From: Ginglymostoma cirratum
Taxonomy: Eukaryota
Length of the DNA stretch: 64,000 bases
NCBI GenBank assembly: GCA_024137785.1
Contig: JAHRHZ010000267.1
Location: 18,993,664 to 19,057,663 of the forward strand
Direction: 5' to 3'
The position numbers were made by a program, and so were the translations under genes. Of the stretch, positions 1 through 63,745 are shown piece after piece (within the stretch, counting starts at the first letter, position 1; every line of letters begins with the position of its first letter). The notes beneath the pieces were generated by a model. That model saw only the letters and a list, made by a program, of their open reading frames with translations, had not been told where the DNA came from and did no database searches.

Positions 1-407
1 TTTTGCTGTGTAATGTGTAGTCTGTTCCTCCCTTCCTTACTGCTGGTGCCAACGTCTCTGAACAGAAACCAAAGATCGATTTTGTACAGCCTCACATTGC
101 ACCTGCACTACGCATCTCAGGATTCCTGTGCCTGCTACTCCACAGTCTACTCGCAGTGCCCTTCTCTTCACAACTGCTGCAGCTTTCTGTACACCCAGGA
201 AGTACTACAGTGCCACCTAGAGACCATATTGTTGAAACAACAACTCAGCAAATCACCACCAGCTAAATGCCACTTCATTCTAATTTCTCTCTCCAACATT
301 GATGAATCACAAGCTGTTTACATTTCAATGCCTCAGCCATGCATGACCATTCAAGGCTTTTAATCTTCAAGACAAGATCTCTCTGTGAGGGCCAGTTAGA
401 ATCTCTG

Positions 408-416
408 AATTACCTG
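408..416 (-). other. 5' splice donor ending the large protocadherin exon
   Basis: Minus-strand CAG|GTAATT directly after HTRQ, the position where PCDH9/11 large exons end. Read-through gives VIQRF then stop at 398-396. Confidence 0.8.
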
Positions 417-3400
417 TCTGGTGTGGATTGGCCCTGCAGTCTTGAAGCCTCCCTGACAACTGCATTCTGATACGCTGTAGGGGTCAGAACTGCTTGAAGA
501 ACACTTGGATAGGGAGTCGCAGCCCACCACAAATGTGTTATCCAGCGGTAACTCTTGGATCACGTGATGCTTCTTAACCGGCACTGGAGTCTCTGGCTTG
601 ATTTGAAAGGAGGGCTGTGGGGAGGTTGACTTGTAGTGTTTTCCCAGATCCGGGCTATCGGGTTTAAAAGTGGTGGGTGTTGTGCCCCAGTTGTACTTGC
701 CCATAGTCTGATCCTCCAATTCCACTGGAAGGTCCAAGGTGCCATTGATGTGCTCATGAGCAGGGTCATCTGGTTTGGACTCCTCAATTGTAACAAAATT
801 CAGAAGAAGGTTCTTTGGCGACCTCTTCTTCTTTCTTTTCTTCTTCTTAATCTGTCGGTTTTCCTGATTGGGAGACACCCACTCCCCGCTCTGTTTCCCC
901 TTCTGCACAGTTTTATGTCTTGGCGTGTGACGGCAACGCACCAAAGCAGTCACAAAAATAACAAGAATGACAGTCATAGTCCCAGCTATGATAGCAATAA
1001 CAATCTTAATATAATCATTAGTCTGTGGAGTCATCTGGCTGTCTCCAACGTTCTTATCCAATGGTGTTTCCATACTCTTCCGTACCAGATCTTGAACGTA
1101 TGTGAAATTATTGATGGATTCATTGAGAAACAAATGCACAAGTGCCATGGCATGCAAGGATTCTGGCTGACCCAAATCAATGACCTTCACCACGATCCTG
1201 TATAAGCCATGGTCTGCTGCAGTCACCTTCTCTTGCAAAGTGATATTGCCAGTCACTGGGTCAATGGCAAACAGTCCTCTGGAATTGCCACTGACTATAC
1301 TGTAGCGCAGTTCCGCATTCATCCCTGTGTCGTTGTCAATTGCAAAAACTTTACCCACCACAGAGCCAGGGTTAGCAGAGGTCGATACTAGTTCATACGA
1401 GAAGTTAGACGGAGGATATACAAACACTGGACTGTTATCATTTACATCAACAACATTTATGGTCACCCTGGCCACAGAGGACCGTTGAGGCCTTCCTCCA
1501 TCCACAGCCATGACTTGAAACGTATAGGAACTTTGCTGCTCCCTGTCAAACGTAATATTGGGTTTGATAACCCCACTGGTGGGATCAATTATAAAGTAGC
1601 CTTTATTATTCAAGATGGAAAGGCTAACAGCTGCATTGTCTCCTGCATCTGCATCTGTAACAGTAATAAGTCCAACTGTCCCATACATGGGCAGGTTTTC
1701 AGGCACGTAGAAATTGTATTCACTGTGTGTGAAGGAAGGGCTATTGTCATTTTGATCTAACACAGTCACAACCACAGTAGCATTGCTCTGAATAGAAGGC
1801 TTGCCTCCATCCCTGGCCAGTACTGTAAAAACATAACGGTCCTGTTTCTCTCGGTCTAATCTCCTCATAGCTGAGAGAATGCCAGTTCTCCGATCTACAC
1901 TGAAGACAGACGGGGCATTGGGACCCAGGAGGTAAGTGATCTCTGCATTTTTCCCACTGTCCGCGTCAGTGGCACTGATTTTTGTTAACTGTGTACCAGG
2001 GGTGTTATTTTCAGGGATTGACAGGCCAATTACGGGCTGATTAAAAACAGGAGCGTTATCATTCTCGTCCTTCAGCTTAATCACCACAGTGGCTGATTGA
2101 TTTAACGGTGGTTTGCCTGCATCGGAAGCCACTATCTTAATAGTATATTCTTTCGTACTCTCGTAGTCCAGCAAGGCAGCAGTTTCTAATAAGAACTGGC
2201 TTTCAAACACAGGCTTCAAACGGTATGGGACATCGTGGTCAGTGAAGCAGGTGACCTTCCCATTTAGGTCTGCATCTTCGTCCGTGACGGTGATCAGGGC
2301 GATTTTGGTATTGAGCGGTGCGTTTTCTGACAGCAAGACGGTGCCATTGACGGGGTTAATGATATACCTGGTGTCGATGGCGGGCACGTTGTCGTTGACG
2401 TCGGTGATGTTAATGGTGACCACAGCCCTGGAGGGGGTCGAACTCCCGTCACTGGCCAGGACGGTCAACTTGTGCACGGGGAATTCCTCCCGGTCCAGCG
2501 GCTGCCTGACGGTGATCAGGCCGGTGGACGGATTGATGGCGAAGAGGCGGCGGGCGAGCGGAGAGACCTGGTTGCTGAAGGAGAAGCGGACGATGGCGTT
2601 GGAGCCCAGGTCGGCGTCGGTGGCGTGCAGCTGGACGACCGAGGTGCCCACCGGCGCGTCCTCGGGGATGTGGACGTCGGTCTCCCCTTCCTTGAAGACG
2701 GGCCGGTTGTCGTTGACGTCGGTGACGGTGATCTGGAGGATGGCGGTGCTAGAGCGTGGGGGCTTGCCGCCGTCCTCCACCTTGATCTTCATCACGTAGG
2801 TGTCCTTCTGCTCACGGTCCAGGCTCTGCTGGACGATGAGCTGGGGCCACTTGTCACCTTCGGGGGTCTCGATGATGTCCAGCCCGAAGACGCTCTGCCC
2901 CTTGAGCAGCTCGTAGTGTTGGATGCCATTGATGCCAGCGTCCGGGTCCAGGGCGGAGGGCACTGAGTAGCGGGAGTTGACGGCTGTGTTCTCAGGGATG
3001 GAGATGTTGATGACCGCCGAGGGGAAAAGCGGAGCGTTGTCGTTGACATCCTCGATGAGGAAGCGCATCTTGACCAGCTGGAAGACCTCGTTAGGCAGCA
3101 CGGCCACCTCGACCTCGTAGAAGCAGCGGCTGTCGCTGAAAGAGTTAGCGCACAGCTTCTCCCGGTCGATGCGGTGGGCGGTGGTGTACAGCTCCCCGCT
3201 GCTGCCCTCCACCCGCAGCAGCGGGGCATCCCCGGTCTTGGAGACCAGCTTGAAGGTGAGGGGCAGACCGGCCGCCGCCGCCGCCGTCAGGTTCAGGTCC
3301 CGCACCAGATTGGCCACCAGCACGTTATCGGGCAGCTCCTCCCGGAGGCTGTAATCCCTCTCCTGTCCCGAAACCCGAGGTACCACCGCCGCCAGCAGAA

Positions 3401-3428
3401 GCATCAGGGCAACAGCAAACGCATCCAT
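414..3428 (-). CDS. pcdh11: Protocadherin-11 (delta-1 protocadherin), large first coding exon: signal peptide, EC1-EC7, transmembrane helix and proximal cytoplasmic tail. The gene continues beyond the left edge of the window.
   Basis: ATG at 3428-3426 in good Kozak context (GAGATGG), followed by a hydrophobic signal peptide ([16 protein letters not shown]). Six DxNDN linkers plus a seventh EC, with DRE/LDYE and AxDxG motifs. TM segment [25 protein letters not shown], then a basic cluster [13 protein letters not shown]11-type segments as recalled: [44 protein letters not shown]. The exon ends HTRQ at CAG|GTAATT (phase 0). The paralog PCDH9 is the main alternative. Confidence 0.9.
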
Positions 3429-3497
3429 CTCCCTCGATCCTCCTCCGGAGCAATTTGCAAAAATGCACGCACACACACACATACACTGCAGCTCCTC

Positions 3498-6487: not shown

Positions 6488-6792
6488 GGCAGTGGTTAGC
6501 ACTGCTGCCTCACAGTGACAGGGACCCGGGTTTGATTTTACTCTTGGGCGACTGTCTGTATGGAGTTTGCACATTCTCCCCGTGTCTGCATGGGTTTCCT
6601 CTCGATGCTCCGGTTTCCTCCCACAGTCCAAAGATGTGCAGGCGAGGTGGATCGGCCATGTTAAATTGCCCATAGTGTTCAGGGATGTGTAGATTAGGTG
6701 GGTTATAGGGGGATGCGTCTGGGTGGGATGCTCTGAGGGTCGGTGTTGACTTGTTGGGCCAAAGGGCACGTTTCCACACTGTCGGGATTATA
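6488..6792 (+). mobile_element. HE1-type V-SINE (tRNA-derived, elasmobranch)
   Basis: tRNA head (cagtggttagcactgctgcctcacag...gggtttgatt), V-domain (ggagtttgcacattctccccgtgtctgc...ggtttcctcccacagtccaaagatgtgc) and CR1/HER1-like tail. Confidence 0.9.
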
Positions 6793-7310: not shown

Positions 7311-7766
7311 TAGAGTCATACAGCATGGAAACATGCCTTCTGGTCCAAATCATCCATGCCGGTCAGTTTTGAAAACTAAACTAATCCCACTTGCCTGCAT
7401 TTGGCCCATATCCCTCTAAGCCTTTCCTATTCATGTACCTGCCCAAATGTCTTTCAAATGTTGTAACTGTACCTGCTTCTACCATTTCCTCTGGCAGTTC
7501 TTTCCACACATGAGTAACCTTCTGTGTGGAAAAAAGTGCCCCAGGTCCCTTTTCCAACTTTCTCCTCTCATCTTAAAAATATGCCACCTAGTTTTGAACA
7601 CCCCCACCCTAGGGAAAAGACCTTTGCTATTCACCTTATCTATGCTCCTCATGATTTTATAAACCTCTATTAGGTCATTCGTAACTCCTATGCTCCAGTG
7701 AAAAAAAGCCCCCAAGCCTATCCAGCCTATCATTTTAACTCAAGCCCTCCAGTCCTGGTAACACCA
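7311..7766 (-). mobile_element. CR1/HER1-type LINE 3' fragment
   Basis: Minus ORF DLIEVYKIMRSIDKVNSKGLFPRVGVFKTR is a CR1 ORF2 C-terminus; typical tail agagtcatacagcatgga. Confidence 0.85.
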
Positions 7767-18601: not shown

Positions 18602-18707
18602 AAAATAATATTTGGCTTTTCATTTTCATTTGTACAGACCTTCGACAAATGTGCAAGAAAATAATATTTGGCTTTTGCTTTCATTTGTACAGATCTTAGA
18701 CAAATGT
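18602..18707. repeat. Tandem duplication with a 56-bp period (2 units)
   Basis: aaaataatatttggctttt...ttcatttgtacaga..tt.gacaaatgt at 18602-18652 and again at 18658-18707. Confidence 0.9.
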
Positions 18708-19964: not shown

Positions 19965-20330
19965 AGGGAAAATTTCTTGAAGGCCTTGACAGGGTAGAGG
20001 CTGAGAAAATCTTGCCCCTGTCTGGGGAATCTAGAACATAGGATCACAGTCTAAAATTAATGGATTGACCATTTAGAATGGAGTGGAGGGACAATGTAAT
20101 CATCTAACAATTTGAGAATCTTTGGAATTTGTTACGACAGACAGCTGTGTATGCTCAGTTGCTGAGCACATTTTTGACGCAGATTCGTAGATTTTTGGAT
20201 AGTAAGAGAATGAAGATATATTAGGATAACTCAGGAAAGTAACTTTGTGATGGAAAGTCAGCCACAAACTTGTTGAATGGTTCAACACACTCAAAGGCCA
20301 CTTGACCTACCCCAACTCCTATTTTGTTAT
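19965..20330 (+). mobile_element. Degenerate CR1 3' fragment
   Basis: ttgacagggtagaggctgag...ggggaatctagaac...cacagtctaaaatta...ccaactcctattt tail. Confidence 0.65.
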
Positions 20331-20904
20331 TTTACCGGATAATGCTGGCTCCTAATTTCTCTGTGATGTCTTCTTCATGAATATTTATTTCAAAACCTTA
20401 CAGCAGAAGGGTTGACAGGTTGTCACGTCTCACTGTAATTCCACATACTTCATTACAGAGTGTAGTTTCCTCCTGCAATGCCATAGTGATGCCACCCGAA
20501 GGCTGCAGGAACAGCAAATCATATTCAGCCTGGGAACCCTGCAGCCCAATGGTATCAATGTGGATTTCACAAGCTTCAAAATCTCCCCTCCCCCAACCGC
20601 ATCCCCAAACCAGCCCAGCTCATCTCCACCTCCCTAACCTGTTTTTCCTCTCACCTATCCCCTCCTCCCACCTCAAGCCCCACCCCCATCTCCTATCTAC
20701 TAACATCATCCCGCCCCCTTGACCTGTCCGTCCTCTCTGGACTGACCTATCTCCTCCCTAGCCCCCACCTACACTCACCTTTACTGGCTCCATCCCCGCC
20801 TCTTTGACTTGTCTGCCCCCTCTCCACCTATCCTCTCCTCTATCCATCCTCTATCCGCCTCCCCCTCTCTCCCCATTTATTTCAGAACCCTCTTCCCCTC
20901 CCCC

Positions 20905-20940
20905 ATTTCTGATGAAGGGCCTCGGCCCGAAACGTCAAGC
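20905..20940 (+). ncRNA. Minimal type I hammerhead ribozyme motif (PLE-associated), copy 1
   Basis: CTGATGA (20909-15), A, GGGCC-TC-GGCCC, GAAA, CGTC. Predicted cut after C20936. Confidence 0.7.
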
Positions 20941-21256
20941 TTTCCTGCTCCTATGATGCTGCTTGTCAACCAAGTCCTTCTCCCAGCTCATCTCCACCTC
21001 CCTAACCGGTTTTTCCTCTCACCCCAAGCCACACCCCCATCTCCTATCTACTAACATCATCCCGCCCCCTTGACCTGTCCGTCCTCCCTGGACTGACCTA
21101 TCTCCTCCCTACCCCCCTACCTACACTCATCTTTACTGGCTCCATCCCCGCCTCTTCGACTTGTCTGCCTCCTCTCCACCTATCCTCTCCTCTATCCATC
21201 TTCTATCCGCCTCCCCCTCTCTCCCTATTTATTTCAGAACCCTCTTCCCCTCCCCC

Positions 21257-21292
21257 ATTTCTGATGAAGGGTTTAGGCCCGAAACGTCGAGT
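21257..21292 (+). ncRNA. Minimal hammerhead ribozyme motif, copy 2
   Basis: CTGATGA (21261-67), A, GGGTT-TA-GGCCC, GAAA, CGTC. Predicted cut after C21288. Confidence 0.65.
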
Positions 21293-22659
21293 TTTCCTGC
21301 TCCTATGATGCTGCTTGACCTGCTGTGTTCATCCAGCCCCATGCTTGTTATCTTGCCTTCTCCCACATTATTTAATTTTACTGCTAAATGCTGTTGGAGC
21401 TGAAAATAGAACAAAAATCTCTCCGTTTGTTTTTGCTCTCACGGAATAGAAACTGGTCGAATGGAATTTACAGCACATTTTGTCTTTCCTTCACTGTTTC
21501 ACTATTACCCAAATTCAAGGTAATAGTGAGACACATCTCACTCTTACAATTGATACCCAATGAATTTTCATAGGTTGTAGACAAGAGGCATCATGGTTGA
21601 ACACATTTTTGCCGTTACCGGACATTCTAACACCTTCAGATTATATTAGTAATAAAGGTGTCAATATCATACTCTCAATATGCTGGTCACAAACCCAACA
21701 TTGTATTGTGTTGTTACCCTATATTCAATCCATTGTCCCTTTGAACACAGTTTCCTGCAGAGTCTGCACGATGTACGTGGATTAAGCCCTTTATTTGGTT
21801 GATGGTATATCTTTGCTTTATTCAGCAGAATAAACTAAAGATAATTTGATTGAGAAGCAATTGTTGCAAACAAATCGATCAGGAATACAGTTTACGCATT
21901 TGACATAAAAAAGGAAGTGATGTGCTCAATATTGACATCTGAGATTAGATTTCATCCTCGTACTATTTGGCTTCAGTATTTTACAGTGCAAAGATTTTAG
22001 TGGCTGTATCCAGCTAATGATAGCTTTTTGGTTTCCTGACTGATTATCATATTGAGAGACATCAAAAAACTAATCTGTTCAGGCATATTAATACAAAACT
22101 ATATTGCCCAATAAAAGTAAATGTTTACATTTTTCTTTCAAGATTAGTTTTGTTTTGAAAAAATCAAAGATAGTTTAACATTTCAATTTTTAAAATTTTA
22201 TAACATAACATATTGATTTATAAAACACATTTCATTTTGATAGTCCTACATGCTGGAGGATCTAACTGGGGCTTGCCACTGAAGACTGTTGCAGAGTGAG
22301 AAAGGCAAAACTTCATTCAACTAATCGCATAGATATCAAAAAGTATTGACTTCCAGTACATTTTCTTCCATTTGCACCCAGCACTAAAAACACACTTATC
22401 AGAATATCAATATTTTCAAAGTGACCTATTCATGGGATTTAATTGAGCTCTTTTCCTAAAAATCAGTTGAATGATTGATCATCCCACTGTTGTCTGGCTG
22501 AATATTTTATGTTTATAATGCTTTTGTCAGCCAAGGAACAACACTTAAAGTGTAGTCATCGTTGTAAAATAAGAAAGTGCTGCAGCCAAATTTCCATGTC
22601 AAGATCTTCATAAGCAAAAATAAGATAATCCATTCTGGTGATGGTTTTAAGGAATGACT

Positions 22660-22860: not shown

Positions 22861-25620
22861 CTACTGCATGATCTTGTGGAATGCAATCAGTGAGCATTAA
22901 CACCCGTCGCTTTTCAAAAGTAATTAATTGTACGTGATGTACATTGTGACATTTCAGCAAGTGCAAAGAAGTAATAAAAATCTACACTTTTTTTCAGAAA
23001 AGCTAGTTTGAATATTTATTGTGAACAAAATTAGGCTTGTGAAATTAGCCTTAAGAACGGCCGCTCAATAGTTATGTTGGAACGAGTAAAATTGTAAAAG
23101 GCTATGTGGATGTGTAGATACAGTATGCATCTATATATGCGTTTCATCCAGAATGAAATCTGGAAGCACAGTGCTAAAGTTGGTTGGACTATGTGACTAT
23201 AAGAGTGTCAGCACTGCCATCAAATGGTCCACTCACATAATTGTTTGTGTGAAACGAGTTTGCTTAAGGCAGAAGATTTAAAAAAAACTAGCAGCCTAGT
23301 AACAGCCTTTCATATTATGTTTAATTCAATGCAGGTAGTGGAAATAAAATACACTTATAATTTTTAATGTTCTAGATATACAGGTGAAATTCTACAGTGA
23401 GACACATAATTGCGAAATAAAAACAAAAATGTTACTCGCTAATTCTTGGGGCATTTTTATGAGGGATGAATCTCACTATTAATATTCACAGTGATATGTA
23501 ATTCTGTTTATGTAATATTGAAATTTATTTGACTTGTATCCATTTAAAATCTTTTATTCCAATTTTGTGCCCTTTGTGACGCATTATTTATAAAAGGTAC
23601 CGCATCTATGCATACAATCTATATGGACAAGGTATCATGCCCAAGCATCGATTTTTCATGTGTAAACAACACAATGAGTCCAAAACTATTCAACTGTAGA
23701 TGTCACCACATGTAAGCCCCATCTTATACTGAACACTCATCAGGAGGAATTGTTAGTTAACGGTTAAGAGTGGGAGTCCCTTTCGCCTTTCCAGTTCATT
23801 GCACAAGAGTATGTTTGCTCCTGCGGCAAAGATTTCTTTGCTTGAGTCAGTCTGTAAATTAAAGCTAGATATACATGGTTGATGTAGCTTAACACTACTA
23901 TTATATTAATGCATAGATACCTGAAGATGATGTACCATCAAGACAGTTAGATGACATCACAATGTGATGTTCCTTTACAAAAGTCTTTGGCTACTAAAGT
24001 TGTGAAAGTCGTTGAAATGGAATCGGTGCAGTCAACTGTGTATAGTGTTAAAGCCATGGAACATAGCCAGAATGTCAATAAGAATAGAACTGAGACTATG
24101 TATAAGTCTGAGATATTATAACAGAGCAAATAATTATTGTTGTTGATCAGCTTCAAATCATTTGTCTCAACAAGAATCCAATCTTTGTGGTATATGTTAC
24201 ATGGGCTAACACATCGGGCAGCACTTAGACCATGTCGTATTTGCGGTGGTCTTTGACCCAAAATATCATATCATGATGACAGTGAGTGGGCATTGAAAGG
24301 TAGTAACAGCTGATTTACTCAAAAGGCTGAAATGATGATTGCAGCAAAAGGATGTAGTCCTAACCATCATCCATCATTATCTGAGTTTAGTGCTGAAGTT
24401 TGCAACCAACAACAAAAACAACAAGCTACAACCTGTACCTGAGCACAACAATCACAAATGAAGAGGAACATTTGTGAGTATATTCTCCCTCTTTAAAATA
24501 AAAAGAGGCCGCAGTGCGCTGAACAAATGTGATGTCACTCTGATATCTCTTTTGGCGTAAATATCATGTGCAGGTGCTATTCATCTTTTTTTTGAAAACA
24601 ACAGCAATAGGAAAGGCACAAACCTAAAATAGCCAACAAGGAAGAAGCCAACACTACAGTATGTTCCTTTATACATGAGCTTTCTTTCTGAAAAGCATAA
24701 ATATAATAGTGAAAGTGGAAGTAAACATCTGACCATCAATTGGCACTCTATAGATATTTTGTCAAAATTTCAGTTATTCGAAGACAGGACAAATCCTTAC
24801 TTTGTCAAGCAATAAATAGCTGGTAAAGAAAGATGAGCTATAAAATATCTTAGGGTTTTAAGAAAAATAAAATCCTCCAGTACTTCAAATGATGACCATA
24901 AGGATCCTGCAAACTTTTGCAGTTTTTAGAAGGCTTGAGTCAATTTCAGCATTGACAGGCTTGAGTCCATGTATATTGACAACAGCCAGGTGAAAGAATC
25001 AATCAATTCATAGGCAGTTGTCAATACAAAGGGACTGATTGTGATTTCACAAAAGCTACCCTAGCTAAAAGACAATGTGCAACTGATCGTTGCCTTTACA
25101 CACATTAATCCTCCTGAAGGATGCAATTTGAATCATTGTAACTTGAGAACAAAGTCTGCAGGTGCTTGACTATGTAAGAACTTTTGCATCATCAACAAGG
25201 TCAGTGAAACATCTAAATAATGCAAGAAATGTGGCTTGTCTGACCATGAAGATAGTGTCCAGTATTTCACGACATTTGCAAACCATGTTTACAAGAGGGC
25301 ATTGGGTTAAATTGTATAATGAACCATATCACTCGGTGAAATCCAAAGTGTGACACAATGTCCCACAAAAACACCTACATTCTATCTGCAAAAAAGACCT
25401 TGAGCTTCCAGCTGCTTGCCAGTGTAATACATTGTCTGCCCTGGCCAACCTCTCTGTCTCAGACTTGCTTCGATGCTTCAATGAAGCTTAGTGCAAGCTG
25501 GAAGAACAACATCTTATTTTCTCAGAGATAATAGGGACTGCAGATGCTGGAGAATCCGAGATAACAAGGTGTGGAGCTGGATGAACACAGCAGACCAAGC
25601 AGCATCATAGGAGCAGGAAA

Positions 25621-25656
25621 GCTTGACGTTTCGGGCCTAGACCCTTCATCAGAAAT
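25621..25656 (-). ncRNA. Minimal hammerhead ribozyme motif, copy 3
   Basis: Minus strand CTGATGA-A-GGGTC-TA-GGCCC-GAAA-CGTC (25652-25625). Confidence 0.65.
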
Positions 25657-25803
25657 AGGGGAGGGGAAGAAGGTTCTGAAATAAATAGGGAGAGAGGGGG
25701 AGGTGGATAGAAGATGGATAGAGGACAGGATAGGTGGAGAGGAGACAGACAAGTCTTCTATCCGCCTCCCCCTATTTATTTCAGAACCCTCTTCCCCTCC
25801 CCC

Positions 25804-25839
25804 ATTTCTGATGAAGGGTCTAGGCCCGAAACGTCAAGC
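25804..25839 (+). ncRNA. Minimal hammerhead ribozyme motif, copy 4
   Basis: CTGATGA (25808-14), A, GGGTC-TA-GGCCC, GAAA, CGTC (to 25835). Confidence 0.65.
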
Positions 25840-26599
25840 TTTCCTGCTCCTATGGTGCTGCTTGGTCTGCTGTGTTCATCCAGCTCCACACCTTGTTAAC
25901 ATCTTATTTTCTGCCTGGGGACACTGCAACCTTCCAGACTCAACATTGAGTTCAATAATTTTAGGGTCAAAGCATCATCTTCAATGTCCCCATTCCAACA
26001 CCCACACACCAGGCCTTGTCATCACATGTGCTGCTGCCACAAAAAATCCTTTATCAGCCACTAATGGTCTCCATTAACAGCTGTTGATTCTACCAGTCTG
26101 ACCTTTACCCATTCCTTTATCTGCTCGACTGTTTCTCTCTCACTCTTTGGGCTCCATCTCCAACTAGTGTTTACTCGTTTCCCCTATCCCCTTCCCACCT
26201 TCAGTACATATACCAACATTTTCTGAGCTGCAATCAGTTTGTCTGACCTGAAAAGTTAACTCTGCTTTTTCTTCACAGATGCTGCCAGACCTGCTGAATT
26301 TTCCCAGAAATTTTTGCTTTTGTATCTAATTTCCAGCAGGCATAGTTCTTTGTTTTTTTTTTGGACAACTGAAATGTTTTTTACGTTGTTGAGAGTGCTG
26401 AACAGTTATTATTAATCCATCAGCATGCACTTATCGGTGTATCATTATGATCCATGAGGTTACAAACAGGTTAGTTCCAACACCAAAAATTCCATACTGC
26501 AACATCAAGTCTATTCATGATCTGGCTACCTTTTACCCAGACAGGTTTCATTCTACAGGTAACTGAAACGTCAACGCAGTTTTCCAACTGAAAGGTGGT

Positions 26600-40517: not shown

Positions 40518-40874
40518 GGGCAGCACGGTGACTCAGTGATAAGTCCTGCTGTCTCACAGCACTAGGGACCTGGGTGCAATTCCAGCCTTGGGGGACTGTG
40601 TGAAGTTTGCACATTTTCCCCATGTCTGTGTGGGTTTCCTCCTGGTGCTCTGGTTTCCTCCCACAGTCCAAAGATTGCAGGTTAGATGGATTGGCCATGT
40701 TAGATTACCCATGGTGTCCAGGGATGTGTAGGTTAGGTGACCTAGCCATGGGAAATGTAGGCTTACAAGCATAGGTTGGGGGAGGTGGGTTGAGTCTGGG
40801 TGGGATGCTTTTCAGAGAGTCGGTGTGGACTAGCTGGGCCAAATGGCCTGGTTCCACAGTGTAGAGATTCTATG
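40518..40874 (+). mobile_element. Near full-length HE1-type V-SINE
   Basis: gggcagcacggtgactcagtg head, V-domain and tail gggccaaatggcctggttccacagtgtagagattctatg. It is inserted into an older L2-like relic (about 40150-41100). Confidence 0.9.
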
Positions 40875-42920: not shown

Positions 42921-45150
42921 GAGTCTTGAAGTCCACTGGAAGACTCAGAGGAGAATGCTTTCTGTCCTGATATTGCAACATGCTCCTGAGTGCTTTAATA
43001 CACCACTTTCTTTACTTGGGAAGCTCTTCCGTCAGGATCTTTTCTGAGAGCATTCATAGGCTGGAAGTGAATCAATGTGTGCAAAAACAAGTACAAGGTG
43101 GAAGGACCAGCTGGAAAGCTGTGATGATCTTAAAGCTATGCAACGAGACTGCTTCAGTTTTAAATGAAACTTTTTTTTGCACCAGGTAAAACATGAGTAT
43201 CTAATTCATTGGTTGAATCTGGCATACAGATATATTTCTTAATAATACTTCAGCCAAAGTCAAATGCTGTTAGGCAAAAGTATGGGTCTTAGTCAGAATA
43301 ATTTATATGCTTCACATGGAGAATTTGCATAGGAGCCCCACTTAGGCCTGAGGCTGTTCACTGATTCCTTTCAATACTTTTATCTTCTTGCTTATACTGA
43401 AAAGACTTTGCAGTTCCGTCTTTTATCACATATCATTTCGATCTCCCCTAGCTAGTTACAGCTACTTTAAATATTAATCCAAGCTCTGCAATTATCAATG
43501 CCTCAATTTCTCTCAGATCTCTCTGGTTATTCAGTGCTGCTTTAAAACACCCCTGACCCTTATAAATACTGCATATAGCACTTCTCTAAATCCACTCCGT
43601 ATCTCCAGTTACCACACTGCTTTGATCGAAATCATGAAGCTGTATACATCTGCAGGTGCAGGAAATAACTGGGAATAGTGTTCCATTTGTATCTGCAGTA
43701 ATGAGGCCGTGATAAAAATGCTGATTTTTGTCATTGTGATGATTCTCTAATGCTCAGTCAAAAATGAAAACCCTTTTGTATTTTATATTCTATGTATATG
43801 CATATGCTTGAACCATCATTCAAAACTTAGCAGCTACTTTTCTATGCTCTTAACACTATCCCATCCTGTTCCTGTCTTCTTAACTTTGCTTCAACCAGCT
43901 GAAGGTTATTCATTTATTATCTTCTATTCATATGTAGCAGATCCTTCCAGCTTCTTCCCTCCACTTTGAATACCTATTTGATCTTTTCAGCTTCTCCACA
44001 GCACTACTGTGTTTTTGATTTATTTTAACTGTTCTCCTGAAGTTGTTTACCCCTAGCTGGAAAAGGTTTCATAGCCTCTCAGTCAGTATCACTACCCTAT
44101 ACAAGTAGCTTTCTGTTTAATGCGTAGACCCTGACATTAGATGTTATTAGATTATTAATTCCAGGAGACATTACAGGCTGATCTTTGTTATATCCAAAAT
44201 TCAGACATTGCTAGGTTTTCCAATATGGTTGGTTGGACTGATAATGAGGAGTATGAACTCTTGCTAATTATTTTTTCTTCTTGCTAACCCTGGTATAGTG
44301 AAATGAGTTGTGGTGCCTGCCCAAAACCCTGCAGCTTCCACATTGAGCAAAGTTCAGTAACCAAACTCAGACATTGACTAAACTAAGGAGCTTCAGGTCT
44401 CAGTGGAATGCTTTTATTTGAAGCTTCTGTAATCCCACTGTCTTTCTATTTTCTACAGTGATGCATTGGGAAGACAGGAGGCATAATTTATTTGCCAACC
44501 ATTCACTTTGCTACCTTGGCACTGGTGTTATCACACGGTCTCTATCCATCTCCTATTTTGTACTAAACCATTTGCAACAAGGCTGTAACATTGACCCTGA
44601 ATTTGAGCTTTTATATTGTCAATGCCACTTACTTCCACCACTGTAATATTGCCCTCTGTCATTTTTCAGATTTTCTGCTACTGCAAACTATAATCATGTC
44701 TTTTACACCTCCAATTTTGAATTCTCCAATGTTCTGTGTGTAGGTCTTCCATCAGCCATCCAGTATTAACTCCACTTTGTCCAGAATGTTGCTGCTCAGA
44801 TGCCATTTCACAATAAGTCACTCCCATGCATTACCTTGACTCTCATTGATTGCAGAGACTCCTTGGTTCCAACACATTCAATTTAAGATTTAACTTCAGG
44901 CCCCTTGGTGGACTCACTCCAACCTAGTTCAACAAGTTTCTCCAGCTTGGCATCCCATCCGGACTCCTCAGGTTCACAATTATAGCCACCTGTGAAATCC
45001 CCTTTCCCTTGCTCTCCTAGAAGGAAAAAGCAGTGAAAGAAAACAATAATTCTTGGAAACAAATATACTGAGTATACTGGAGCTCTATTTTGAAGTAACA
45101 AAACAAGTCAAACCAATATATGTCATTCACAAGTCCTGGAAAATGGTTTC

Positions 45151-45285
45151 AGAGATAGTAGGAACTGCAGATGTTGGAGAATCTGAGATAACAAGGTGTA
45201 GAGCTGGATGAACACAGCAGGCCAAGCAGCATCATAGGAGCAGGAAAGCTTGACGTTTCGGGCCTAGACCCTTCTTCAGAAATGG
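45151..45285 (-). mobile_element. Solo PLE family A tail with hammerhead motif (copy 5, 45252-45279)
   Basis: Nearly identical to 25524-25655. Minus strand CTGAAGA-A-GGGTC-TA-GGCCC-GAAA-CGTC. Confidence 0.8.
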
Positions 45286-46429
45286 TACTAGTTACCATAA
45301 GTCATTTCCTCTGGTACTTGTCAAAACTCCTCTACTACTCTTTTCCTCTTTCCTATGTTGTGAATATGTAATCCAAAAATAATTTCAAAGACCAGGTATT
45401 GATTTTTCAATTTCATTGCTGGTTTCAGGTATGAACGACTTTTTAAATAGTCTCCAAGATGGCTGCCAGACCTTTTTACAACTTAAACCTTCTCAAGGCT
45501 CTGGAATTTTCACAGTGGACTATAAAGAGACAGCCCGTGAGACTTATACATTTTCGAATATTAAGGAAACTCTAAAAACAATGATAATACTTTTCTGATA
45601 TTGACTCAATGCTTTTCAGACAAGGAGTAAATTCCACTGAGAGCTTCATTAAAAGAAAGTGGGTTCTGTTCATTATGGAAGTAAAGGTTTCAGCCCAGAT
45701 AGGGGGATAACCCAACTGCCTGAATGGTATTACCATGACATTTATAAGGGACCATGATCTTGCAGGCTAAAAGCCAGTCACATGGACACAGCTAACCATA
45801 GGAGATGCAGGACAGGGTAGGGCAGGAACTCCTGTGGTACACTGACAGTGTTCCTACCTCTATGCTGCAAAGGCCTCGGTTCCAGTCTTACCTACTCTAG
45901 ACAGATATTATGCCACATCTGAACTGTTGGTTTAAAAGTCTCCAAAAAGGCAGGATAAGCTACTAAAGTCTGGAATCAACACAGCTTCTCTCTTTTTCTC
46001 GACAATCTTGTAACATTATGAGAGTTTGACAAAAGAGTGACCAGCTTTACCATCCCTCCTGTCTGAAATCTCCCACTCCTGACATCAAATCAATATCATT
46101 GTCTTCAGAAAAAACAAAAATTGAGCAGCTACATCTTTAAACTAATATGATGGATGATTAAAAAGATATTTCTGTTGCTTATGCATTATCAACTATCTTG
46201 CACCTGCAACTCTGAGCTTGTACATTTCCCTGGTTCTGCACGCTTCATGGAAGTCAGAATGCAATTTTCCCTTTTTAATGATTGTCTATTTTCTTATGAA
46301 GTTATAAAATATGGACTATTAATCTTTAATTCACTTGAAAAAACTCAGCTTGAAATGAGCCAGGACACTTGTAAAACCACTGCAGAAGCCACCATTACCT
46401 GCTAACAATTCTTAAACAATCTTGTCCAG

Positions 46430-46795: not shown

Positions 46796-47125
46796 TAGAG
46801 TCATGGAATCACACAGGTCAGAAACAGACTCTTTGGCCCAATTTGTCCATACCAACTAAGTTGCCCATCCTAAAATAGCCCCACTTGCCTGTGTTTGGCC
46901 TGTATCCCTCTAAACTTTTCCTATTCGTGTATCCACCCAAATATCTTATGAATGTTGCAACTGTAACTGCATCAATCACTTCCTCTGGTGGTTCATTCCA
47001 CATACAAACCACCCTCTGTATGAAAATGTTGCCCCTTGGGTCCCTTTTAAGTCTTTTTCCTCTCACCTTAAAAAAAAGCCCCCTAGTTTTGAACTTCCTA
47101 CCCTGGGGTAAAGACCTTTGTTATT
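46796..47125 (-). mobile_element. CR1/HER1 LINE 3' fragment
   Basis: Minus ORF RGKRLKRDPRGNIFIQRVVCMWNEPPEEVIDA; tail agagtcatggaatc. Confidence 0.85.
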
Positions 47126-53010: not shown

Positions 53011-53104
53011 CTGAAGAAGGGTCTAGACCCGAAACGTCAGCTTTCTTGCTCCTTTGATGTTGCTTGGCCTGCTGTGTTCATCCAGCTCTACACCTTGTTA
53101 TCTC
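53011..53104 (+). mobile_element. Solo PLE family A tail beginning at the hammerhead core (copy 6)
   Basis: CTGAAGA (53011-17), A, GGGTC-TA-GACCC, GAAA, CGTC, followed by the family A tail ...catccagctctacaccttgttatctc. Confidence 0.8.
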
Positions 53105-53789
53105 GCCTTTTCATTACCCTTTGTCCATAGCACATGTTACATTCCCAAGGAATACCAAAAAAACGGTTAAACATGATTTTATTTTCACAAAACTACTGTG
53201 ACTGTCTGATTATCTTGAATTTGTCCTACAAAGTCCTTGAATAACTTCTAACGTTTTCTGCATGATAGATGTTAAGCCAATTATTGGATAGTTTCCTGTT
53301 TTCTGTCTCCTTCCTCCTTTTTGAGTGAAGCAGTTACACTTATTATTTTATGGATTTTTGGAATTATGACTGGGCTAGCAGCAAAAATGCTAGAATAATT
53401 GTCTCCCAGTATTTGATCAAAACAAATGCAAGAATAGCGGCTGTTTGAATACAGCATGTCAAATGCTGCTTGGTTGACATCAGCTAACCAGGCAGTGATC
53501 AAAGATCAAACCTGGACTGTAAAGCATTCTATATCATAGACTAGGTCTAGGAGGAGTGGTTGAAGCATGTTGCTATTTCTTTCCTGCATTTATTTTTAAT
53601 TTATGCTTTTGGTCTCCGAGTGAACCAGAAGGAAAGGCAAATTGGCTATGAAAAATTGAACATGCACATGCTCAGGGTAATTGTGGAGTGATGACATCAA
53701 CTGATTATAGGCAAAACCTCTTCTGCTTTATTTACTTTTCCATTGACTTGGGCATCACTGGTTGTCCATTTCTAAATGCCTTTGATATT

Positions 53790-57021: not shown

Positions 57022-57605
57022 TATAGAACATTGAACTGTACTGCACAGGACAGGCCCTTTGACCCATCATGTCTGCACTAACCATGATGCCATTCTATAC
57101 TATTCCCAACTGCCTGCACATGCTCCATATTCTTCTATTGCTTGCCTGTTCACATATCTGTCTGAATGCCTCTTAAATGCTGCTATCATATCTGCTTCTA
57201 CCAGCTCCCCCAGCAGCGCATTTCAGGCACCCACCGCTACCTTTATCCAAAAACTTGCCTAGCACATTTCCTTTAAACTTTATCCGTCTCACCTGAAACT
57301 TATGCCCCTTAGTACTTGACATTTCCAACCTTGGAAAAAGACTCAAAATATTCACCCTATCCATGCCTCACATAATCTTATATACTTCTATCAGGTCGCC
57401 CCCTCAGCCTTCAACGCGCTGGCAGAAATGATCCATGTTTGTCCAACATCTCCTTATGGCTAACACACACCAATCCAAAAAACATCCTGGTAAACATCTT
57501 TTGCATCCTCTCCAAAGCCTCCATATCATCCCTATTGTGTTTCAAACAGAACTGCACACAATACTCCAAATGTGGCCTAACTGAATTTTCATACAGCTAT
57601 AACAT
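57022..57605 (-). mobile_element. CR1 LINE 3' fragment
   Basis: Minus ORF MDRVNILSLFPRLEMSSTKGHKFQVR; tail atagaacattgaactgtactgcacagg. Confidence 0.85.
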
Positions 57606-61509: not shown

Positions 61510-62917
61510 CTTGAGATGAGGATTGAAATCGCAAGAATGAGAACACACTCAAGAATAAAGATTTCATGATGCTTTTTTTGAAAAAAAAAGTCAGTGGAGA
61601 ATGCTGATTTTGAGAGAGAGGCTAAGGAGGGTGAAATAAGGTAACATGCACGAAGGAGGAAAATGGACCAGAGGTGAAAGGGGACAAACCAAAAAGTGAT
61701 CTGGTGTTAGGGATCCCATTGCCACTGTGTTGTATGTAGAGGAGCAAGTGTTAGAAATATAGCCAGACAAGAAGGCTTTATTATGTGGCAAGTTGGCATC
61801 AGGGCTCAACCAGGTGCTGTTGGTGCAATCATCCATATTAATTTAACAAATAGTAAAGGCCTTTTTCAGAAGTGGAGGGAGAGAGAGGATTATTGGAAAC
61901 CGATCTGTTGAGAGAGTTCACAGTGTCAGTAATGGGAGGAAGAAAATTTGCAAGGTGCTCCCACTGGGACCACTGTGTGGAAGAACTGATGAGAGATTGT
62001 GATAGGGCAAATAGGTTACTTCTTGTAATCACAAAACACCAGGTTATAGTCCAACAGGTTTATTTGAAAATGCAAGCTTTCAGGGCCTTACTCCTCCAAA
62101 AGCTTGTCCATCCCAGTCCAACACTGACACCTTCACATCATGATTTCGTGCAATGCCTGTATTGGAAGCTTTGGTGCACACATTAGAAGATGAGAAGCAT
62201 TGAGACAACTGTAGATTTTGTTCATCAGGGCTTATGCCTGTGATGAAGGGAAGAAGACAAGAATATCGCTAAATTCTGAATAGTTGAGGTAAAGAATTGG
62301 AAAGGCTGCGTACCTTAGAGAAGAAGTGAAAGGATACAGAACTATCAAATAGAGGGGACAAGGAGAGGGAAAGAAAATAAATAGCTTGTTAAATCCTGAT
62401 TAAACCACAATCTGTGTAAACAACACCAGAGAGCTCCTTTCAAATTTGAACAAATACCTCCATTTGTCTGCTGTGAAACCATTACAGCCTCAGCCTGGAG
62501 GTATGAAATTTCAAAGTATTATGTGACACTGAGCTCAGCTTTATCTGTCCTAGTAACCAAGGTTGTTACCTGATCAGTCAACAAGTAATCAATTATTTCT
62601 GTTTATGCCTCATTCTCCGAAAATAACTCTTTTCCTTTCACAGTTGGTCTTCTCTAATATTTATTGTTCTAATCTTGCACTTTTGTTATTCACTGATTCC
62701 AAAAGCTTGATTACTGGGGCTTTAATTGAGCTGAAACAATTGGGTGGAAAAAATAGTGACAAAGTCAAGTGTCCAAACATTTGCCTCTGTTCCTGGGATC
62801 AGAAATTTTCCCAAGGGCAGGTGGAATGTGGGCCTGAAAACTCACTGGTATTCCTAAACAGGACAATTAATCTCATTGAGGGTGAAGCAAGTTTTTTTTT
62901 TAAAATGAGGGTGGTAT

Positions 62918-63520
62918 GGGGAAACGAAGTGTAGACTTGGCGACTGCTTTGCAGAACATCTATGTTCTGCTCGCAAAAAAGACCCTGAACTACCTGTTGC
63001 CTGCGACTTTAATGCACCGCCCTGCTCCCTGGCCAACATCTCTGTCTCTGGCTTGCTGCAGTGTTCCAGTGAAGCCCAACGCAAGCTGGAGGAACAACAC
63101 CTCATTTTCCACTTGGGGACCCTATAGCCCTCTGGACTCAATATTGAGTTCAATAATTTTAGGGCCTAAACTCTCCCATGTCCTAGCCCCCTACCCCACA
63201 TCCGAGGCCTTGTTACCACATAGCCTGCCATTACACACCCCCTGTTGTTAGTCACTAACAGTCCCCATTAACAACTATTCACCCTCCCAGCCTGATCGTT
63301 AGCAACTCCTTTGTCTGTCCAACTGTCTTTCACTCTCTTTGGGCCCTATCCTATTGTTTACTCCCTACCTCACCCACCTCCCTATTTTCTGCATATAAAT
63401 TGACGTTTTCCCAGCTATCATCAGTTCTGAGGAAGGGTCACCGGACCCAAAATGTTAACTCTGTTTTTTCCTTCACAGATGCTACCAGACCTGCTGAGCT
63501 TTTCCAGCAACTTTGTTTTT
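62918..63520 (+). mobile_element. Penelope-like element 3' end (family B): GIY-YIG endonuclease relic, 3'UTR and hammerhead motif at 63423-63460
   Basis: 62918-63169 translates GETKCRLGDCFAEHLCSARKKDPELPVACDFN...QRKLEEQHLIFHLGTL*PSGLNIEFNNFRA*, a frame not listed in the ORF track. Motif: agtt-CTGAGGA-A-GGGTC-ACCG-GACCC-(A)AAA-TGTT-aact. Confidence 0.85.
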
Positions 63521-63745
63521 GTACCTAAAATGCACTGCCTGGGGAAGCTGGTAGAAGCAGATATAATAGCAGCATTTAAGAGGCATTTAGACAGATATGT
63601 GAGCAGGCAGGCAATAGAGGGATATGGAGTATGTGCAGGCAGTTGGGAATAATATAGAATGGCAACATGGCTAGTGCAGACATGGTGGGCCAAAAGGCCT
63701 GTCCTGTGCAGTTATAGTTCAATATGTGTATAGTTCAACGTCCTA
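63521..63745 (+). mobile_element. CR1 3' fragment, inverted copy of 57022-57230
   Basis: ctggtagaagcagatataatagcagcatttaagaggcatttagacagatatgtg...ggcctgtcctgtgcagt. Confidence 0.85.

What the first reader, a model, noticed from the sequence alone, without database searches (positions are those of the whole stretch)
20614..21352. Tandem hammerhead dimer that could release a 352-nt retrozyme-like (circular) RNA
Seen: two same-strand copies of a pyrimidine-rich unit, each with an intact hammerhead core. The predicted cuts after C20936 and C21288 are 352 nt apart. The units are joined by a 16-nt unrelated linker (20966-20981), and the second has an internal deletion of about 20 nt. Known: metazoan non-LTR retrozymes are tandem units of a few hundred nucleotides with minimal type I hammerheads that yield linear and circular RNAs, and tandem pseudo-LTRs are a PLE hallmark. 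Inference: this arrangement supplies in cis the two palindromic ACGU helix III halves needed for dimeric folding, so it is the best candidate here for an active ribozyme.
Basis: partly seen in the sequence, partly recalled or inferred. Interest (0 to 1): 0.72.

Follow-up and report, generated by a model that had tools for sequence, protein, structure and literature searches.

The report
Two truncated Penelope retrotransposon ends, shark
The two hammerhead ribozyme motifs are real, but they are the tail ends of two broken copies of a common jumping gene that happen to sit side by side in a shark genome, so the locus looks ordinary and is unlikely to make a circular RNA.

Summary
The tandem is real: period 352, two intact minimal type I hammerhead cores, predicted cuts 352 nt apart. 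But unit 1 starts at about 20470, not 20614, inside the C-terminus of a GIY-YIG endonuclease (49/55 aa identical to a whale-shark RT+GIY-YIG protein). Both units are therefore 5'-truncated Penelope-like element (PLE) ends; four more young copies lie in the same 64 kb. The linker is not unrelated: a 10-bp direct repeat (20976-20985 / 21356-21365) flanks unit 2 like a target-site duplication. The cut-to-cut monomer occurs once, so the array is not a rolling-circle product, and the units have drifted apart independently. Helix I has only 3-4 bp with wobbles. The dimer fold costs 14.5-30 kcal/mol in ViennaRNA, against a median of 3.0 (maximum 9.3) for 112 canonical monomeric hammerheads. The predicted circle is 28% paired (z -1.3). 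In a relative's polyA RNA the family is abundant, with no pile-up of ends at the cut. No RNA from this locus was available. Verdict: an ordinary composite PLE-end insertion of a described kind; a working circle is unlikely but untested.

The parts
20470..20637 (+). C-terminal end of the PLE GIY-YIG endonuclease reading frame with its stop codon; 5' truncation point of unit 1
   Evidence: tblastn and blastp: 49/55 aa identical to residues 415-469 of P0001 (RVT_1 + GIY-YIG); frame
20614..20965 (+). Unit 1 pLTR part (pyrimidine-rich 3' region plus hammerhead), 3'-truncated 29 nt after the predicted cut
20906..20939 (+). Minimal type I hammerhead 1: 3-bp helix I, core with extra A after position 9, 4-bp helix II, ACGU, predicted cut after C20936
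20966..20975 (.). 10-nt spacer unrelated to the element, probably target-site DNA (not shown)
   Evidence: no fit above chance to the element's 3' end (27% of random 10-mers fit as well) or to the left flank inverted (42% of random places)
20976..20985 (.). Left copy of a 10-bp direct repeat (candidate target-site duplication of unit 2); last 4 nt double as the first 4 nt of unit 2 (microhomology)
20982..21353 (+). Unit 2: 5'-truncated pLTR with a 17-nt internal deletion and the family's usual short 3' end (no tail)
   Evidence: family reads continue into the tail behind 21353, table 7
21257..21292 (+). Minimal type I hammerhead 2: 4-bp helix I with two G.U pairs (one next to the cut), predicted cut after C21288
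21356..21365 (.). Right copy of the 10-bp direct repeat; start of the genomic flank that is also present in two related organisms
   Evidence: contigs of X5 and X13 start to lie on the window at 21356 and 21355 (table 8)
20937..21288 (+). Hypothetical 352-nt cut-to-cut product (29 nt of unit 1, 16-nt junction, 307 nt of unit 2); present once; not observed as RNA
   Evidence: 74% pyrimidine, circular MFE -32.0 kcal/mol, 28% paired, z -1.3 against 100 shuffles

Best explanation
The locus is a dead, composite insertion of two 5'-truncated 3' ends of a high-copy Penelope-like retrotransposon (endonuclease-bearing, probably Neptune type). The element's protein nicks DNA and reverse-transcribes from near the 3' end of its RNA; most copies stop early, leaving only the pseudo-LTR with its minimal hammerhead (established PLE behaviour). 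Here unit 2 was joined at its 5' end through a 4-nt microhomology with a 10-bp target duplication, and a longer unit reaching into the endonuclease lies 10 nt further up. Shown: the endonuclease remnant, family membership, the direct repeat, independent drift of the units, absence of the unit-2 sequence next to the orthologous right flank in two relatives. Inferred: that the spacer is target DNA, and that both units arrived in one event by template switching or in two adjacent events. The hammerheads are passengers. Their cores are intact because the insertion is young; a competing hairpin buries the core and helix I is too weak for efficient unaided cleavage, so little or no 352-nt RNA is expected.
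For: Endonuclease C-terminus at 20470-20634, 49/55 aa to P0001; P0004 reads through from the endonuclease into the hammerhead codons and aligns to both units. Four more young copies in 64 kb, all with intact cores, plus five older related ends; 27,617 and 79,253 contigs laid on unit 2 from two relatives. Family hallmarks: inverted pair in a 15-bp duplication at 25508-25912, 36-nt optional tail, matching PMC8557442 and PMC11167929. 0 shared derived and 3+3 private changes in 94 polarisable sites; unit 1 vs unit 2 differ at 8/159, each vs the 25.6-kb copy at 10/159 and 8/159. Flank contigs in X5 and X13 begin at 21356 and 21355 with at least 486 unlaid letters beyond. Folding penalty 14.5 and 19.5 kcal/mol for the two composite cores and 30.3 for both, against median 3.0, maximum 9.3 in 112 of 118 distinct canonical cores.
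Against: Both cores, helix II stems and ACGU halves are intact, and the double-hammerhead is topologically possible. The folding control is monomeric viral hammerheads, not animal dimers, and ViennaRNA ignores tertiary contacts and proteins. Read depth in X22 rises about 2.6-fold across the bin holding the cut site (table 2), which cleavage could also cause, although no pile-up of ends was reported and 89% of laid reads run on into unlike sequence. No duplication was found for unit 1, and the letters of the empty site were not shown. No genome or RNA of the window's own species was available.
Confidence: 0.88

Rival explanations
1. Same element, different origin of the tandem: one PLE end inserted, was then duplicated locally together with about 12 nt of right flank by slippage at the 4-nt microhomology, and the first copy later lost its last 36 nt. 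This is a variant of the best explanation, not exclusive of its main claim.
For: It explains the 10-bp repeat, same orientation and same subfamily without a second insertion; the junction can be aligned to the 3' end plus flank with three gaps.
Against: 0 shared derived changes in 94 sites, so it must have happened right after insertion; the 10-nt spacer fits the element's end no better than 27% of random 10-mers.
Confidence: 0.25
2. One reading: the pair folds as a double hammerhead in a read-through or pLTR-driven transcript, cuts twice, and the 352-nt piece is ligated into a retrozyme-like circle, possibly with help from the PLE protein.
For: Intact cores and palindromic ACGU; size fits retrozyme monomers (150-450 bp, PMC7229834; chondrichthyan mean 363 bp, bioRxiv 10.64898/2026.07.22.740005); the Anolis PLE hammerhead cleaves when the protein is added (PMC11167929); the family is transcribed in a relative (38,768 of 12,895,792 records read in X22).
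Against: Helix I 3-4 bp against median 6 in 112 canonical motifs; pairing probability of helix I about 0 and of the dimer helix III under 0.004; even without the spacer the double fold is -9.1 against -26.5 kcal/mol for the two free pieces; product weakly structured; monomer present once; the neighbouring protocadherin exon is on the opposite strand; no pile-up of ends in the relative's RNA, and 3,106 reads run through an intact core.
Confidence: 0.07
3. The tandem is an assembly artefact (one unit written twice).
For: PLE tandems are hard to assemble (PMC8557442 passage); no reads of this species could be laid.
Against: The units differ by 15 substitutions and two indels, have different 5' and 3' ends and a unique junction with a 10-bp repeat; no flank is duplicated beyond those 10 bp.
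Confidence: 0.03

Closest known systems
Minimal hammerheads (min-HHR) in pseudo-LTRs of metazoan Penelope-like elements (Cervera and De la Pena 2014, PMC4209133)
   Same: Type I topology, no helix III stem-loop, palindromic 15.2-16.2, extra base between positions 9 and 10.1, G10.1-C11.1 pair, dispersed truncated copies, nearby opposite-strand pairs.
   Different: Helix II is 4 bp here (7-8 bp in the Schistosoma families) and helix I 3-4 bp (4-5 bp there, 2 bp in D. virilis); sharks are not named in the parts read.
Partial-tandem and inverted insertions of EN+ PLEs, Neptune/Poseidon clades (PMC8557442, PMC3846280, PMC11167929)
   Same: 5' truncation, partial tandem, 8-10 bp class of target duplication, microhomology at the 5' junction, optional 30-40 nt tail in sister copies, C-terminal GIY-YIG directly before the pLTR.
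   Different: No RT frame remains; the longer copy lies upstream and has lost its own 3' end; a short non-element spacer separates the two units.
Metazoan non-LTR retrozymes (Cervera and De la Pena 2020, PMC7229834)
   Same: Two type I hammerheads a few hundred nt apart in head-to-tail units; unit size in range.
   Different: The retrozymes shown to give circles (coral, mussel, axolotl) have canonical hammerheads, repeated monomers and highly self-paired RNAs. Here the motifs are minimal, the monomer is single and the RNA is 28% paired.
Vertebrate 'non-LTR retrozymes' as PLE pLTR derivatives (Li, Clavereau, Pollet, bioRxiv 10.64898/2026.07.22.740005)
   Same: This locus would probably meet their computational definition (tandem repeat with two hammerhead-bearing units); they report such units in one chondrichthyan, mean 363 bp, and trace them to pLTRs.
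   Different: Their definition does not show activity (1 of 9 tested dimers cleaved); this locus still carries the endonuclease end and so documents the PLE origin directly.

Membership tests
EN+ Penelope-like element, truncated 3' end | GIY-YIG endonuclease C-terminus immediately upstream of the pLTR | tested here: met
   20470-20634 = P0001 415-469, 49/55; P0001 has GIY-YIG (above cut-off) and RVT_1 (below cut-off) matches. The 73-aa window frame alone gives 0 Pfam families.
EN+ Penelope-like element, truncated 3' end | Minimal type I hammerhead in the pLTR (extra base after position 9, G10.1-C11.1, palindromic helix III half) | tested here: met
   features as listed in PMC4209133
EN+ Penelope-like element, truncated 3' end | 5' truncation with partial-tandem or inverted copies and an optional 30-40 nt tail | tested here: met
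   All six young copies in the window are truncated; inverted pair at 25523-25897; 36-nt tail on 2 of 6 copies, absent from both units; tail also in X22 and X23 loose ends
EN+ Penelope-like element, truncated 3' end | Target-site duplication | tested here: inconclusive
   10-bp repeat around unit 2; longest match for unit 1's left junction only 3-4 nt; empty-site letters not seen
Neptune clade of PLEs | CX2-5CxxC linker between RT and endonuclease | tested here: inconclusive
   Present as CX4CxxC in the homologue P0001 (motif from PMC8557442); that region is truncated away in the window; no tree was built
Autonomous PLE | Intact RT-EN frame between the pLTRs | tested here: not met
   Only 55 codons remain; the units are 16 nt apart
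Non-LTR retrozyme (PMC7229834) | Canonical type I hammerhead (helix I about 6 bp, helix III stem-loop) | tested here: not met
   helix I 3-4 bp, no helix III stem-loop; Rfam Hammerhead_1 not matched though it matched 2 of 20 control loci
Non-LTR retrozyme (PMC7229834) | Monomer repeated head to tail or dispersed as a unit | tested here: not met
   Within the window the cut-to-cut unit and its junction occur once; coding sequence lies upstream and the normal element end downstream. The rest of the genome could not be searched.
Non-LTR retrozyme (PMC7229834) | Highly self-paired monomer RNA, GC below 50% | tested here: not met
   28% paired, z -1.3; 192 of 352 bases G or C
Non-LTR retrozyme (PMC7229834) | Self-cleavage in vitro and accumulation of linear and circular monomers in vivo | not testable with these tools
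   No run of the window's own species was found (best share 0.29); RNA laid was from a relative
Operational 'active retrozyme' (bioRxiv 10.64898/2026.07.22.740005) | TRF tandem with at least two units holding a hammerhead of MFE below -5 kcal/mol | tested here: inconclusive
   TRF 1.9 copies with slightly different parameters; 71-nt segments fold at -15.5 and -11.8 but not into the hammerhead; their rnabob descriptors were not run

The most novel reading that the evidence does not exclude
The locus is a retrozyme caught at birth: one PLE integration switched template from RNA to target DNA and back, placing two hammerheads 352 nt apart around 10 nt of host DNA, and with the PLE protein as chaperone the pair releases and circularises a locus-specific 352-nt RNA. 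The host-derived spacer would be a natural barcode for the first circular RNA from a minimal-hammerhead dimer in a shark.
Probability: 0.05. Interest if true: 0.55.

Novelty: new member of a known kind. Interest (0 to 1): 0.14.

Why it matters
As it stands it matters little: it is one of very many truncated PLE ends in shark genomes, and tandem hammerhead-bearing pLTR units have been reported for a chondrichthyan. It is a tidy example of how a two-hammerhead 'retrozyme' call can arise from insertion accidents, with the endonuclease remnant still attached. If a junction-bearing 352-nt circle were found, it would show that minimal PLE hammerheads cut in vivo, which is still open, and would link PLE insertion to retrozyme birth.

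Tried and rejected
No whole genome is held, so copy number and other copies of the junction could not be counted. Family patterns found 0 stretches in metagenome contigs, viral contigs and prokaryote genomes. The look-up of sequencing runs: no RNA holder listed, and none of 24 runs held half of the words; this is no evidence on expression. Rfam gave no hammerhead match at the locus. An apparent inverted likeness between the junction and 20403-20419 is chance level (42% of 1,941 random places). The idea that the spacer is a remnant of the element's 3' end is not above chance (27% of 5,000 random 10-mers). A recent or homogenised duplication was rejected (0 of 94 shared derived sites). Intact cores as a sign of selection were rejected: 6 of 6 young copies have them, and 1 of 5 older related ends keeps both core halves. 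X23 gave only 32 laid reads and was uninformative. Earlier findings by place and by sequence returned nothing, nor did a second word search. Literature searches for hammerhead + Penelope + shark, hammerhead ribozyme + elasmobranch + retrotransposon (0 papers) and Penelope-like + circular RNA + Chondrichthyes showed no study of this family's RNA in sharks; the library lacks most subscription papers, and the preprint's supplementary tables, which may list this family, were not seen.

Full report
Observation. The tandem exists. TRF reports 20663-21317, period 352, 1.9 copies, 94% matches. The core pattern matches at 20909-20933 and 21261-21285, among 9 matches in the window against 0.92 expected. 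Each core is followed by GUC, so the predicted cuts after C20936 and C21288 are 352 nt apart. The units differ by 15 substitutions in 335 aligned bases, a 17-nt deletion and a 1-nt insertion. Rfam does not recognise the motifs, which is expected for minimal hammerheads without a helix III stem-loop; the same library matched only 2 of 20 canonical control loci.

What the units are. Unit 1 does not start at 20614. The frame at 20470-20634 is 49/55 identical to the last 55 residues of P0001, a whale-shark protein with RVT_1 and GIY-YIG matches. A zebra-shark homologue, P0004, reads through its stop into the hammerhead codons and aligns along both units. So the pyrimidine-rich unit is the pseudo-LTR of an endonuclease-bearing Penelope-like element, and the window is from a shark (inference from these homologues). 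P0001 carries a CX4CxxC linker, the mark of the Neptune and Nematis clades in PMC8557442 (passages); I built no tree. Four more young copies lie at 25.6 kb (minus), 25.8 kb (plus), 45.3 kb (minus) and 53.0 kb (plus), and five older related ends lie elsewhere in the window. The 25.5-25.9 kb pair is inverted, sits in a 15-bp duplication, and one arm has a 36-nt tail. These are the hallmarks described in PMC8557442, PMC3846280 (passages) and PMC11167929 (parts 1-2 of 4). In two relatives 27,617 and 79,253 contigs lie on the stretch, nearly all on unit 2.

How the pair arose. Unit 1 stops 29 nt after its cut site, 36 nt short of the usual end; unit 2 has the usual end at 21353. The 16-nt linker is not unrelated. 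Bases 20976-20985 are repeated exactly at 21356-21365, and the last four of them are also the first four of unit 2. Only 10 of 63,001 start positions in the window (2 places) do as well, and 0 of 2,610 pyrimidine-rich starts. The right copy is genomic flank: a contig of X5 lies on the window from 21356 (24 differences in 607) and one of X13 from 21355 (41 in 811), each with at least 486 letters beyond that point that do not lie on unit 2. That indicates an empty site in both relatives, though the letters were not displayed. The simplest reading is a target-site duplication with 5' microhomology around unit 2, with the remaining 10 nt being target DNA and unit 1 added beside it in the same event or a second one. 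A local duplication with later deletion is not excluded. No duplication was found for unit 1. In 94 sites where at least two outside copies agree, the units share 0 derived changes and have 3 private ones each; they are no closer to each other (8/159) than to the 25.6-kb copy (10/159, 8/159). Their divergence is like that of the flank between species (4-5%), so the pair is about as old as the insertion. A rolling-circle product would repeat the cut-to-cut unit; here it occurs once, with coding sequence upstream and the normal end downstream. DNA contigs of relatives show go-back joints with several different periods (12 of 74 rows shown, table 5c), so 352 is not a family constant.

Could it cut? 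The nested double hammerhead can be drawn: outer helix I 4 bp with two G.U pairs, inner helix I 3 bp, shared 4-bp helix III. In the free ensemble of 20850-21350, helix I has probability about 0 and the shared helix III under 0.004; a hairpin pairs the core with the cut site in both units and in the 25.8-kb copy. Forcing the fold costs 14.5 (outer core), 19.5 (inner core) and 30.3 kcal/mol (both). As a control, 127 viral loci with a canonical core were fetched; of 118 distinct cores, 112 had assignable helices (6 dropped), with helix I median 6 bp and cost median 3.0, maximum 9.3. Without the spacer, the double fold is -9.1 against -26.5 for the two free pieces. The control is monomeric and the model ignores tertiary contacts and proteins, so this lowers the odds and does not exclude activity. 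The 352-nt product would be 74% pyrimidine, 28% paired, z -1.3 against 100 shuffles, unlike the highly self-paired retrozyme circles of PMC7229834 (parts 2-3 of 6). Published tests agree: minimal dimers show low activity (PMC4209133, parts 1-2 of 4); the Anolis PLE hammerhead cuts only with protein, is not needed for insertion in vitro, and no RNA-seq ends were found at its cut (PMC11167929); 1 of 9 Xenopus dimers cleaved (bioRxiv 10.64898/2026.07.22.740005, parts 1-3 of 5).

RNA evidence. No run of the window's own species was found. In polyA RNA of a relative (X22, about 24% of the run read) 38,768 of 12,895,792 records lay on the stretch, in both directions alike. No place where a fifth of the molecules begin or end was reported, and 3,106 reads run upstream through an intact core. 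Against my reading, depth rises about 2.6-fold in the bin that holds the cut; 89% of laid reads continue into unlike sequence, so truncation and subfamily divergence can explain it, and a fragmented polyA library is a weak test for cut ends or circles. This says nothing about the locus itself. The nearest gene seen is a protocadherin exon at 396-3497 on the minus strand, 17 kb away; its transcript would not carry the hammerhead strand.

Comparison and verdict. It is a member of the PLE truncated-end class with minimal hammerheads. It fails the tested features of classical non-LTR retrozymes (canonical hammerhead, repeated monomer, structured RNA), but would probably be counted by the computational definition in the 2026 preprint, which reports such units in one chondrichthyan (mean 363 bp) and derives them from pLTRs; its supplementary tables were not seen. 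Earlier AI notes on similar loci in other genomes agree; they are unchecked and add no support. Interest 0.14; new member of a known kind. The boldest reading left open, a protein-assisted circle barcoded by 10 nt of host DNA, gets 0.05.

Noticed in passing
window 25508-25912: Inverted pair of the same young PLE end (minus arm with 36-nt tail, plus arm without) in a perfect 15-bp duplication, inserted into the endonuclease-coding remnant of an older PLE (25369-25971, ending near 26324).
   Followed up: partly
window 62912-63524: Older-family PLE 3' fragment: 84 codons of GIY-YIG region (55% to P0001, one stop), pLTR and a decayed hammerhead with a 4-bp helix I.
   Followed up: partly
window 45149-45286 (minus) and 53011-53112 (plus): Short copies truncated within a few bases upstream of the hammerhead core; many joints in relatives' DNA and RNA also map to 21257-21258, just upstream of the core, so truncation or inversion seems to cluster there and not at the cut site.
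   Followed up: no
window 20909-20937, 21262-21288, 25808-25836: The predicted lowest-energy fold pairs the core's UGAUG with the bases around the cut site in three copies, a family-wide hairpin that could keep the ribozyme off until a protein remodels it.
   Followed up: partly
window 20880-20885 and 21232-21237: A long pyrimidine tract ends in a CAG 24 nt upstream of each core, like a splice acceptor; in D. virilis Penelope an intron end abuts helix I (PMC4209133). Not tested.
   Followed up: no
window 396-3497 (minus): 1,033-codon frame of a protocadherin large exon (six Cadherin stretches plus PF08374); PCDH9-like by recall of its C-terminal motif, not by a call.
   Followed up: partly
run X22 on window 20966-21365: About 0.3% of the polyA records read in a relative lie on this one element end, including many strand-switch joints from transcribed inverted copies.
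   Followed up: no
window 6556-6700 and 40596-40739; 7376-7532, 46870-47026, 57095-57251; about 19975-20290: Other dispersed repeats; they look like a shark SINE and LINE 3' fragments (labels recalled, not tested).
   Followed up: no
window 18602-18707: 55-bp tandem duplication, 1.9 copies, 90% matches.
   Followed up: no
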